NCBI RefSeq assembly: GCF_006345805.1
Contig: NC_042999.1
Location: forward strand, 127,968,001 to 128,032,000
Length of the DNA: 64,000 nt
Source: Octopus sinensis
Lineage: Eukaryota
Direction: 5' to 3'
Made by a program: the position numbers and the translations under genes. Below, piece after piece: positions 51,959-52,550 of this stretch (positions are counted from its first letter, which is position 1; each line of letters starts with the position of its first letter). A model generated the notes under the pieces. It was not told the DNA's origin. It did no database searches and was given only the letters and a program-made list of their open reading frames with translations.

Positions 51959-52056
51959 CAGCAATATTTATTCTAAAATTGGAATGATACAGAGAAGATT
52001 AGTATGGCCCCTATGCAAGGATGACACACAAATTTGTGAAGCATTCCATATTTTTT
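51959..52056 (+). pseudogene. U6: U6 snRNA retrocopy (5' end truncated or decayed)
   Basis: tattctaaaattggaatgatacagagaagattagtatggcccctatgcaaggatgacacacaaatttgtgaagcattccatatttttt. Confidence 0.92.
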
Positions 52057-52057
52057 C

Positions 52058-52278
52058 AGGTGCAGGTATGGCTGTGTGTTAAGAAGCTTACTTCCCAACC
52101 ACATGGTTCCAGGATCAGTTCCACAGTGTGGCACCTTGGGCAAGCGTCTTCTACTATAGCCTTAGGTTGACCAAAGCCTTGTGAGTGGATTTGGTAGATG
52201 GAAACTGAAAGAAGCCCATCATGTATATATATATATTATATATATATATACATATGTATGTATGTATGTATATATTTT

Positions 52279-52327
<49 letters not shown>

Positions 52328-52550
52328 CTGTGTGTTTGTGTTTTGTCCCTCCACCATCACTTGACAACCAGTGTTGGTGAGTTTATACCAGCTTAATGTT
52401 TTGGCAAAAGAGACCGACAGAATCGGCACCAGGCTTATAAAGAATAGGTCCCAGGATCAGTTTCCTCGACTAAAATCCTTTAAGGTGGTGCTCCAGCATG
52501 GCTTCAGTCAAATGACTGAAACATGCAAAAGAATAAAAGAATAAAAGAAT
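52058..52550 (+). mobile_element. SINE family A copy fused downstream of U6
   Basis: Begins aggtgcaggtatggctgtgtgttaag and ends tgactgaaacatgcaaaagaataaaagaataaaagaat. Confidence 0.88.

What the first reader, a model, noticed from the sequence alone, without database searches (positions are those of the whole stretch)
51959..52550. Second, independent U6-SINE fusion 8.6 kb away
Seen: U6 (tttttt end, one extra c) again abuts the exact 5' end of a family A SINE, in opposite orientation, with different flanks and a differently structured SINE body. It is therefore not a local duplication of the 43-kb locus. Both U6 copies in the window are fused this way. Inference: two in 64 kb suggests a high genome-wide copy number, i.e. 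a systematic U6-capturing retroposition route or an amplified chimeric family. The slightly different junctions favour repeated formation.
Basis: partly seen in the sequence, partly recalled or inferred. Interest (0 to 1): 0.75.

Follow-up and report, generated by a model that had tools for sequence, protein, structure and literature searches.

The report
Recurrent U6–SINE chimeric retrocopies
Both U6 copies in this window are old U6 sequences joined head-to-tail to a SINE, two of several hundred U6–retroposon junctions in this genome, likely made repeatedly when a LINE reverse transcriptase jumped from the end of a SINE or LINE RNA onto U6 snRNA, a process already known from vertebrates.

Summary
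Rfam finds two U6 copies in the window, at 51954-52055 (+) and 43293-43399 (-). Each runs from its T-run straight into the 5' end of a family-A tRNA-like SINE. The flanks do not align and the two SINE bodies differ in structure.

The pattern holds genome-wide. The U6 3' end occurs at 443 places. I read all 72 non-array places among the first 100 listed. Of these, 62 abut a retroposon: 19 the full SINE-A head, 29 a short 3' tail module, 4 internal SINE-A, 4 other SINE heads and 6 other repeats. An exact junction pattern finds 46 U6–SINE-A head fusions against 0 in the control.

Junction fillers, SINE and LINE partners and U6 gene types all vary. Fused SINE heads scatter on a tree (16 changes, shuffled mean 16.7). 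This points to repeated formation and not to one amplified chimera.

The kind is already known. U6 chimeras with L2/Mon-1, AnolisSINE2 and L1 are described (Doucet 2015). A template jump is my favoured route and RtcB ligation is the rival.

New here are the host lineage, the copy number, and two junction hot spots that coincide with the 5' ends of ordinary copies.

The parts
51954..52056 (+). U6 snRNA retrocopy, old: the 5' stem is degraded and the CpG sites have decayed. It ends in T6.
   Evidence: Rfam RF00026, 91.4 bits, model 1-105. 92% identity to the array U6 gene over positions 21-107.
52057..52057 (+). One-base filler (C) between the U6 T-run and the SINE.
   Evidence: Read from the sequence. 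C or CT fillers recur genome-wide.
52058..52549 (+). Full-length family-A tRNA-like SINE with an internal TA/TG microsatellite at about 52225-52335.
   Evidence: BLAST to the 408-nt SINE-A reference covers positions 1-403. The head is 84.8% identical to the reference head.
52484..52522 (+). 3' two-hairpin tail module of the SINE (GGTGGTGCTCCAGCATGGCT... CTGAAAC), followed by the AAAAGAAT-type repeat tail to 52549.
   Evidence: Tail BLAST. Consensus fold of ten tails.
43293..43399 (-). First U6 retrocopy, full length, ending in T5.
   Evidence: Rfam RF00026, 107 bits. 93.5% identity over 1-107 to the array gene.
42944..43292 (-). Family-A SINE joined directly to that U6. The body carries an internal deletion of about 115 nt.

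Best explanation
Each of the two loci is a single chimeric retrocopy of U6 snRNA joined to a family-A SINE RNA. It was most likely made when the reverse transcriptase of a SINE-mobilising LINE copied the SINE RNA to its 5' end, jumped onto the 3' end of a U6 RNA and carried on, so that U6 plus SINE were inserted together.

Shown directly:
- U6 abuts retroposon sequence, in sense orientation wherever the partner's strand could be read, at hundreds of unrelated places.
- Partners, junctions and U6 gene types vary.
- Fused SINEs are not one clade.
- The junctions pile up at the 5' end of the SINE and at the 5' base of the LINE/SINE 3' tail module. These are the same positions where ordinary, non-chimeric copies begin.

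Inferred:
- The join was made by a template jump during target-primed reverse transcription.
- The enzyme is the RT of the LINE(s) that share the tail module.

The two window copies are old members of this population and arose independently.
For: - True U6 genes form tandem arrays on another contig (C1:141.83-141.96 Mb), have a TATA-like box near -30, and are followed by TTTTT(T)CTTACTC with no SINE.
- The 35-nt U6 3' end (CpG-degenerate, up to 2 mismatches) occurs 443 times, against 0 in the reversed control.
- I read all 72 non-array places among the first 100 listed. Partners were 19 full SINE-A head, 29 tail module only (6 tail types), 4 internal SINE-A, 4 other tRNA-like SINE heads and 6 other interspersed repeats. 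That is 62 of 72. The SINE-A and tail partners lie in U6's orientation.
- The exact pattern of U6 end, 4-26 nt, then a SINE-A 19-mer gives 46 hits against 0 in the control. The fillers differ: none, C, CT, CTA, AG, GTT, CAGAATG and others.
- On the tree of 19 fused and 49 unfused SINE-A heads, the fused label needs 16 changes. The shuffled mean is 16.7, and one starred clade holds 3 fused plus 12 unfused.
- Both U6 gene types occur in chimeras (24 type a, 19 type b).
- The T1 tail is the 3' end of an RT-encoding LINE (RVT_1, 109.6 bits).
- About 18 of 30 random T1 tails are solo tails that start at the same (AA)TGGCGG position as the U6 chimeras.
- Flank matches consistent with short target-site duplications around the whole U6+partner unit exceed shuffled pairings. 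The mean longest match is 3.84 against 2.79±0.36, with 0 of 500 shuffles as high, on the 31 loci left after dropping 10 low-complexity ones. Clear cases are 16 bp at L049 and 7 bp at L090.
- None of the 72 is a U6-poly(A) copy.
- Doucet 2015 (PMC4476161, section 10 read) reports the same architecture for L2/Mon-1, AnolisSINE2 and RTE, with short TSDs.
Against: - No experiment or RNA data were used, so the jump itself is inferred.
- Moldovan 2019 (PMC6789731, passages read) shows for human U6/L1 that RtcB can ligate U6 2',3'-cyclic phosphate to 5'-OH RNA before retrotransposition. The sharp tail-module hot spot could reflect a cleaved 5'-OH RNA.
- The TSDs of the two window loci themselves are uninformative (4-nt ATAT at 43 kb, microsatellite flanks at 52 kb).
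- The SINE tree is star-like (1 starred branch of 65), so it excludes one clade only weakly. Starred branches force at least 2 origins.
- The sample favours young copies, because it required 0 mismatches in the U6 3' end.
- The two window U6 copies share the direction of decay at 4 of 5 CpG sites that both lost (P about 0.19 by chance, my arithmetic).
- The classification of partners is partly by eye.
Confidence: 0.6

Rival explanations
1. RNA ligation comes first. Mature U6, ending in a 2',3'-cyclic phosphate, is ligated by RtcB or a similar ligase to SINE/LINE RNA fragments bearing a 5'-OH. The chimeric RNA is then reverse transcribed as one template through its LINE-type tail. The outcome is the same (recurrent, independent chimeras) but the joining step differs.
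For: - The route is demonstrated for human U6/L1 (PMC6789731, passages read).
- The very sharp junction at the base of the tail module in 29 of 72 copies, also seen in about 18 of 30 solo tails, would fit a site-specific RNA cleavage.
- About half of the SINE-A junctions have no filler.
Against: - 19 of 72 junctions lie at the very 5' end of the SINE. A Pol III transcript should carry a 5'-triphosphate there. In Moldovan's assays, replacing the 5'-OH by a triphosphate strongly reduced ligation.
- CT fillers that match the first bases of the U6 gene's 3' flank (18 of 72; gene flank) suggest unprocessed pre-U6, which would lack the cyclic phosphate. This is inference.
- No ribozyme family matches the tail.
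Confidence: 0.25
2. One U6–SINE chimera, or a few, became a master element and amplified as a new U6-headed SINE family. The two window loci would be its copies.
For: - The two window U6 parts share the decay direction at 4 of 5 CpG sites.
- Many junctions read T5-6 + ATAGGCGCAGG.
Against: - Among 46 exact hits the junction fillers take many forms.
- Fused heads scatter among unfused ones.
- Partners include at least 3 SINE head families, 6 tail types and internal SINE positions.
- Two U6 gene types are involved.
- The shared U6 changes all lie at CpG sites.
- The U6 promoter is upstream and external, and the T-run terminator sits between U6 and the SINE. A copy could therefore not transcribe the chimera. 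This rests on established Pol III type-3 promoter knowledge.
- The 43-kb locus has no TATA at about -30.
Confidence: 0.05
3. There were two separate events. SINEs inserted by target preference right after the T-run of pre-existing solo U6 pseudogenes. Alternatively, the 52-kb locus is a diverged segmental copy of the 43-kb locus.
For: T-rich sites are common LINE endonuclease targets (general knowledge). The two loci lie only 8.6 kb apart.
Against: - Solo dispersed U6 copies are rare. 10 of 72 have no recognised partner, and these include a likely true gene (L044) and palindromic loci.
- Wherever the partner's strand could be read, the partner lies in U6's orientation and starts within a few bases of the T-run.
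- 5'-truncated partners also abut U6.
- Flank matches bracket the composite.
- The flanks of the two window loci do not align and the SINE bodies differ.
Confidence: 0.05

Closest known systems
U6 chimeras with 'stringent' LINEs and their SINEs: U6–L2 and U6–Mon-1 in platypus, U6–AnolisSINE2, U6–L2 and U6–RTE in Anolis (Doucet et al. 2015, PMC4476161; section 10 read in full)
   Same: The U6 3' end with its T-run is joined in sense to a SINE or to a short LINE 3' piece. The partner ends in a simple-repeat tail. TSDs are short or absent. U6 is often 5'-truncated. No U6-poly(A) copies occur. Several LINE/SINE families take part.
   Different: This is a different, non-vertebrate-looking genome, and the numbers are larger: about 400 dispersed U6 3' ends against 40 chimeras in platypus and 6 AnolisSINE2 chimeras. 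Here a large share of junctions sit at the exact 5' end of a full-length SINE or at the base of the tail module. Doucet did not report that pattern in the section I read.
Human U6/L1 chimeric pseudogenes (Buzdin 2002/2003 and Garcia-Perez 2007 as cited in Doucet 2015; Moldovan et al. 2019, PMC6789731, passages read)
   Same: Full-length U6 ending in oligo-T is fused to the 5' side of a retroposon copy. The whole unit is inserted in one event, and formation is recurrent.
   Different: L1 is a 'relaxed' poly(A) LINE. The partner there is variably 5'-truncated L1 and not a SINE. TSDs are long. The ligation route has been shown only there.
Chimeric retrogenes of Magnaporthe grisea (MINE LINE with WEIRD RNA; PMC2104539, search listing and start of abstract only)
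   Same: These are chimeras of a cellular RNA and a LINE, ascribed to template jumps, found outside vertebrates.
   Different: The host is a fungus, the captured RNA is different, and no SINE partner or U6 is involved as far as I saw.
snRNA-headed SINE families such as SINEU (recalled, not looked up)
   Same: An snRNA sequence lies 5' of a LINE-type tail.
   Different: Those are amplifying families with one fixed architecture. Here every test for a single amplified family failed.

Membership tests
U6 chimeric retrocopy (snRNA pseudogene 'Group IV' of Doucet 2015) | A recognisable U6 with an intact 3' end and T-run, joined in sense orientation directly to a LINE/SINE sequence | tested here: met
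   Rfam hits. Junctions read. The SINE is identified by BLAST to the SINE-A reference and to unfused copies.
U6 chimeric retrocopy (snRNA pseudogene 'Group IV' of Doucet 2015) | The partner retroposon keeps its own 3' end (tail used for priming) | tested here: met
   Both window SINEs end in the two-hairpin module plus the AAAAGA-type repeat.
U6 chimeric retrocopy (snRNA pseudogene 'Group IV' of Doucet 2015) | Target-site duplication around the whole chimera | tested here: inconclusive
   Window loci give only ATAT at 43 kb and microsatellite flanks at 52 kb. Genome-wide, flank matches exceed shuffles (3.84 against 2.79±0.36, 0 of 500), with clear single cases at L049 (16 bp) and L090 (7 bp).
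U6 chimeric retrocopy (snRNA pseudogene 'Group IV' of Doucet 2015) | Not a gene: lacks the upstream U6 promoter context | tested here: met
   Array genes and L044 have a TATA-like box near -30. The 43-kb locus has none. The 52-kb upstream is a TATG microsatellite and cannot be judged.
U6 chimeric retrocopy (snRNA pseudogene 'Group IV' of Doucet 2015) | Independent, recurrent formation (variable junctions and partners) | tested here: met
Amplifying snRNA-headed SINE family | Copies share one junction and form one clade with diagnostic substitutions | tested here: not met
   The 46 exact hits show many junction forms. The fused label needs 16 changes for 19 rows, no fewer than shuffles.
Segmental duplicate of the 43-kb locus | Homology extends into the flanks | tested here: not met
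   The alignment shows identity only over U6 plus SINE.
Template-jump origin (as opposed to RNA ligation) | The join is made by the RT during cDNA synthesis | not testable with these tools
   There are only indirect pointers: junctions at presumed 5'-triphosphate ends, and hot spots shared with non-chimeric copies.

The most novel reading that the evidence does not exclude
The U6 caps are a natural record of where the templates of a stringent LINE's reverse transcriptase end. The enzyme jumps end-to-end onto (pre-)U6 whenever it runs off an RNA. This reveals a discrete ~45-nt 'tail-only' template RNA that starts at the base of a two-hairpin recognition module. It also shows small-RNA heads being married to LINE tails in the act, which would be the birth step of new SINEs, running at hundreds of events in one invertebrate genome.
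Probability: 0.15. Interest if true: 0.6.

Novelty: new member of a known kind. Interest (0 to 1): 0.4.

Why it matters
The finding shows that U6 capture during LINE-mediated retroposition operates at scale outside vertebrates. Until now it has been documented in mammals, platypus and a lizard. Here it involves several SINE and LINE families at once.

The junctions concentrate at two positions: the SINE 5' end and the base of the 3' recognition module. These coincide with the starts of ordinary copies. That makes this genome a good natural data set for asking whether chimeras arise by end-to-end template jumping or by RNA ligation, and for studying how SINE heads acquire LINE tails.

For annotation there is a practical point. 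Most dispersed U6 hits in this genome are dead chimeric retrocopies. The real genes are the arrays on contig C1 and a few solo loci.

Tried and rejected
- The exact junction pattern found only 4 places. It required the CpG-decayed U6 variant and a fixed SINE start, so it was too strict. I replaced it.
- ARAGORN calls no tRNA in the window, so the SINE heads are too diverged to score as tRNA genes.
- Pfam on 19 ORFs downstream of 9 unclassified or 'other repeat' U6 copies gave 0 families. I could not show that any of these is a U6–LINE-ORF chimera.
- An Rfam E-value scan of a LINE 3' end and three chimeras found no ribozyme. It returned only U6 and microsatellite-type miRNA noise.
- U1 control: none of the 12 full-length U1 copies I read is followed by a SINE head or tail module, and 11 of 12 have a 3'-box-like flank. 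Only the 42 best candidates were scored, so truncated U1 chimeras would have been missed.
- I considered shared ancestry of the two window U6 parts. The shared changes are CpG transitions, with 4 of 5 in the same direction, which is not significant.
- TSDs of the window loci are not informative.
- The earlier-findings index holds nothing for this genome.
- Literature searches returned no relevant paper in the held library. 'octopus + SINE + U6 snRNA' gave 1 irrelevant paper. 'U6 snRNA + retrotransposon + cephalopod' gave 0. 'U6 snRNA + chimeras + template switching + invertebrate' gave 1 irrelevant paper.
- That the SINEs look cephalopod-like is my recollection only and was not tested.

Full report
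**1. Observation**

Rfam at gathering threshold finds two U6 matches in the window and nothing else: 51954-52055 (+), 91.4 bits, and 43293-43399 (-), 107 bits.

At the 52-kb locus U6 ends in six T (52051-52056). One C follows, and aggtgcaggtatggctgtgtg... begins at 52058. At the 43-kb locus U6 ends in five T and aggcgcaggggtggct... follows at once.

The downstream sequence is the family-A tRNA-like SINE in both cases. The 52-kb copy aligns to positions 1-403 of a 408-nt SINE-A reference taken from a young copy. It ends near 52549 in the family's 3' module and AAAAGA-type repeat.

The pairwise alignment of the two loci shows identity only across U6 plus SINE.
- The flanks do not align.
- The 43-kb SINE lacks about 115 nt of the body.
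- The 52-kb SINE has a TCCTT insert before the tail module, and the heads differ at many positions.

**2. What real U6 genes look like here**

The window lies at C3:127,968,001-128,032,000 of a 2.72-Gb assembly.

A search with the 43-kb U6 returned 40 scored matches of 687 first-look candidates. Most are a tandem array on C1:141.92-141.96 Mb with a period of 1.1-1.4 kb, plus a smaller cluster at 141.83 Mb. These copies are identical to each other. They have a TATA-like box near -30 and are followed by TTTTT(T)CTTACTC with no SINE.

A second, canonical-type U6 (5' GTACTTGCTTCGGCAGTAC) with TATAAATA near -31 is a solo locus, L044.

The two window copies differ from the array gene mainly at CpG sites (CG to TG or CA). 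The 43-kb copy is 93.5% identical over 1-107. The 52-kb copy is 92% identical over 21-107 and has a decayed 5' stem. They are old.

**3. Genome-wide census**

All five non-array, non-window loci fetched were already fused to retroposon sequence.
- L006 is fused to a full SINE-A head.
- L007 is fused to a different tRNA-like SINE.
- L008 is fused to a short 3' tail.
- L009 is fused to a third SINE.
- L034 is fused to the middle of SINE-A.

A CpG-degenerate pattern for the last 35 nt of U6, allowing up to 2 mismatches, matches 443 places against 0 for the reversed control. Of the first 100 places listed, all with 0 mismatches and covering C1 to part of C10, 28 are the arrays. I examined all of the other 72: 69 fetched, plus L008, L009 and the window's 52-kb copy.

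I read the sequence after the T-run. I also ran BLAST against 104 kb of unrelated sequence with the U6-adjacent parts masked, and BLAST against the SINE-A reference. Together these give the following.

| Partner after the U6 T-run | Copies (of 72) |
|---|---|
| SINE-A, from position 1 (full head) | 19 |
| 3' tail module only, starting at about position 347 of the reference or its homologue (six tail types) | 29 |
| Internal SINE-A positions (65, 257, 259, 287) | 4 |
| Heads of other tRNA-like SINEs | 4 |
| Other interspersed repeats | 6 |
| No recognised partner | 10 |

So 62 of 72 abut a retroposon. The SINE-A and tail partners are all in U6's orientation. For the six other repeats I could not read a strand.

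The 10 without a recognised partner are one likely true gene (L044), four loci with palindromic or related flanks (L054, L059, L098, L101), two that run into microsatellite, one followed by a second U6-like 5' piece (L038), and two with nothing recognised (L058, L062). L050 and L051 are a local inverted duplicate of one event. No copy is of the U6-poly(A) type.

This classification is partly by eye. The sample also favours young copies.

**4. U6–SINE-A head fusions specifically**

The exact pattern TTCCATATTTT, 4-26 nt, then a 19-mer of the SINE-A head finds 46 places against 0 in the control. Neither window copy matches it, because both heads are too diverged.

Adding the 9 sampled fusions that the pattern misses, plus L006 and the 43-kb copy, gives at least 57 distinct loci seen.

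I also made a rough capture-recapture estimate (my arithmetic). There are 19 in the sample and 25 pattern hits on the same 1.39 Gb, with 10 shared. This gives about 47 there and about 90 genome-wide.

The SINE-A head itself has 135,933 matches at up to 3 mismatches in a 44-mer. Fused copies are therefore on the order of 0.1% of the family.

**5. Junction anatomy**

In 28 of 49 unfused SINE-A copies, ATA directly precedes GGCGCAGG. The family therefore begins (AT)AGGCGCAGG, and U6 is joined to its very first bases.

The fillers between the T-run and the SINE differ from locus to locus: none, C, CT, CTA, AG, AAT, GTT, ATCC, CAGAATG and others. The T-run is 4-7 in 69 of 72 copies and 8, 9 or 19 in three.

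The second hot spot is the 5' base of a module of about 45 nt: GGCGGTGCnnCAGCATGGCC, a second hairpin, GAAAC, then a simple repeat. A consensus fold of ten tails from five types gives two hairpins. The first is almost invariant. The second has 2 pairs kept through changes on both sides.

One tail type (T1) has 7,032 genomic matches. Of the 30 I looked at:
- 11 continue upstream into a longer element.
- About 18 are 'solo tails' that begin at the same (AA)TGGCGG position as the U6 chimeras.
- 1 is itself a U6 chimera.

At L114 that longer element has an ORF matching Pfam RVT_1 at 109.6 bits, so it is an RT-encoding LINE.

Both junction hot spots therefore coincide with the places where ordinary, non-chimeric copies begin.

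**6. One origin or many?**

The tree has 19 fused SINE-A heads (18 that passed a coverage filter, plus the shorter 43-kb head) and 49 unfused heads from the window and unrelated loci. Four fused copies with short or internally deleted heads (L072, L075, L080, L089) were left out.

The fused label needs 16 changes. The shuffled mean is 16.7, and 215 of 500 shuffles are as low. The tree is star-like, with 1 starred branch of 65, so it is weak evidence on its own. That one starred clade holds 3 fused and 12 unfused rows, which forces at least two origins.

The tree result does not stand alone.
- The junction fillers vary.
- There are several partner families and positions.
- Both U6 gene types occur in chimeras (24 type a, 19 type b).

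Together these make a single amplified chimera untenable.

For the two window copies, the SINE bodies carry different subfamily signatures and structures. Their nearest rows on the tree also differ. Their U6 parts share the direction of decay at 4 of the 5 CpG sites that both lost. About 19% of independent pairs would do the same (my arithmetic).

**7. One insertion or two?**

Several points argue for one event per locus.
- The partner always sits within a few bases of the T-run, and in U6's orientation wherever a strand could be read.
- 5'-truncated partners also abut U6.
- Solo retro-U6 copies are nearly absent.

I compared the 25 nt before the U6 5' boundary with the 70 nt after the tail hairpin.
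- Over 41 loci the longest match averaged 4.73 nt, against 3.19±0.41 in 200 shuffled pairings (maximum 4.56).
- After dropping 10 loci with low-complexity flanks it averaged 3.84, against 2.79±0.36, and 0 of 500 shuffles were as high.
- Clear single cases are L049 (16 bp) and L090 (7 bp).

Short TSDs are what Doucet 2015 reports for L2-type chimeras (1-9 bp). The window loci themselves are uninformative on this point (ATAT at 43 kb, microsatellite at 52 kb).

**8. Mechanism**

Two routes are in print.
- A template switch of the LINE reverse transcriptase from the retroposon RNA to U6 during target-primed reverse transcription. I saw this in Doucet 2015 (passages and section 10) and its citations of Buzdin 2002/2003 and Garcia-Perez 2007.
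- Ligation of U6's 2',3'-cyclic phosphate to a 5'-OH RNA by RtcB before retrotransposition (Moldovan 2019, passages).

I favour the jump (about 0.6) for three reasons.
- A quarter of the junctions sit at the first base of a Pol III SINE transcript, which should carry a triphosphate. Moldovan's assays found that end a poor ligation substrate.
- Both hot spots are the ends of ordinary copies, as expected if the enzyme jumps when it runs off a template. End-to-end jumping by the R2 RT is recalled from memory and was not looked up.
- CT follows the T-run in 18 of 72 sampled copies and in 12 of 46 exact junctions. CT is also what follows the T-run in the array genes. This hints at unprocessed pre-U6 as the acceptor.

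That last point is inference and has a weakness: many CT cases have T4, whereas the gene has T5-6.

Ligation (about 0.25) remains open, above all for the tail-module junctions. No Rfam ribozyme matches the tail.

**9. Comparison and novelty**

The architecture matches Doucet's Group IV chimeras. It is closest to the cases with stringent LINEs and their SINEs (platypus L2/Mon-1, Anolis L2/RTE/AnolisSINE2). The match covers the short TSDs, the frequent U6 5' truncation and the lack of U6-poly(A) copies.

Three things are new here.
- The host. My three searches of the held library returned no relevant paper on U6 chimeras in cephalopods or other invertebrates. Subscription-only papers are not covered.
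- The scale. There are about 400 dispersed U6 3' ends. Extrapolating 62 of 72 gives roughly 350 chimeras.
- The two sharp junction hot spots.

I rate it a new member of a known kind.

A limited U1 control found none of the 12 full-length copies I read next to a SINE or tail.

**10. Limits**

- No RNA data, no sister genome and no bench work were used.
- Only 72 of about 410 dispersed places were read.
- Counts from the genome search are lower bounds by the tool's own statement.
- Supplementary files of the cited papers were not consulted.

Noticed in passing
L054 (G000:C3:80.18 Mb), L059 (C4:30.29 Mb), L098 (C9:90.29 Mb): U6 sits inside a palindrome. The upstream flank is the reverse complement of U6 positions ~55-107 plus more than 100 nt of the downstream flank. 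No SINE is attached. L054, L098 and L101 share a similar downstream flank. The origin is unknown: snap-back or twin priming, or a DNA-level inverted duplication.
   Followed up: partly
G000:C1:141.83-141.96 Mb (L010-L033) and L044 (C2:121.64 Mb): The true U6 genes form a tandem array of at least 28 identical copies with a period of 1.1-1.4 kb. A solo canonical-type U6 with TATAAATA near -31 also exists. Two U6 5'-stem variants occur, and both are found in chimeras.
   Followed up: partly
L104-L133; window 10653-10695 (-): A LINE 3' tail (7,032 matches at up to 1 mismatch) occurs mostly as 'solo tails' of ~45 nt plus an (ATCA)n-type repeat. These all start at the same base, the foot of a two-hairpin module. 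One such solo tail lies in the window.
   Followed up: partly
L038 (G000:C1:188.87 Mb): U6 is followed by CT and then the first ~40 nt of a second, canonical-type U6-like sequence. This is a possible U6–U6 double chimera.
   Followed up: no
L050 / L051 (G000:C3:7.290 and 7.297 Mb): Two U6–tail chimeras lie 6.4 kb apart in inverted orientation with the same junction and the same downstream sequence. They are a local inverted duplication of one event.
   Followed up: no
G000:C15:28.98-29.18 Mb (L164-L175 etc.): This is a U1 snRNA gene cluster. Dispersed full-length U1 copies carry a conserved 3'-box-like flank (aaatcaaacaaagaacagact) and look like genes, not retrocopies.
   Followed up: partly
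window 51820-51950 and 52225-52335, 52550-52770: Dense TATG/TG/TA microsatellites flank and interrupt the 52-kb chimera. SINE-A copies generally carry an internal TA/TG microsatellite that varies in length between copies.
   Followed up: no
72 sampled loci (L035-L103, L008, L009, L003): After the U6 T-run the next two bases are CT in 18 of 72 copies, which matches the first two bases downstream of the array genes. T-runs of 7-19, longer than the gene's 5-6, occur in 11 of 72.
   Followed up: partly
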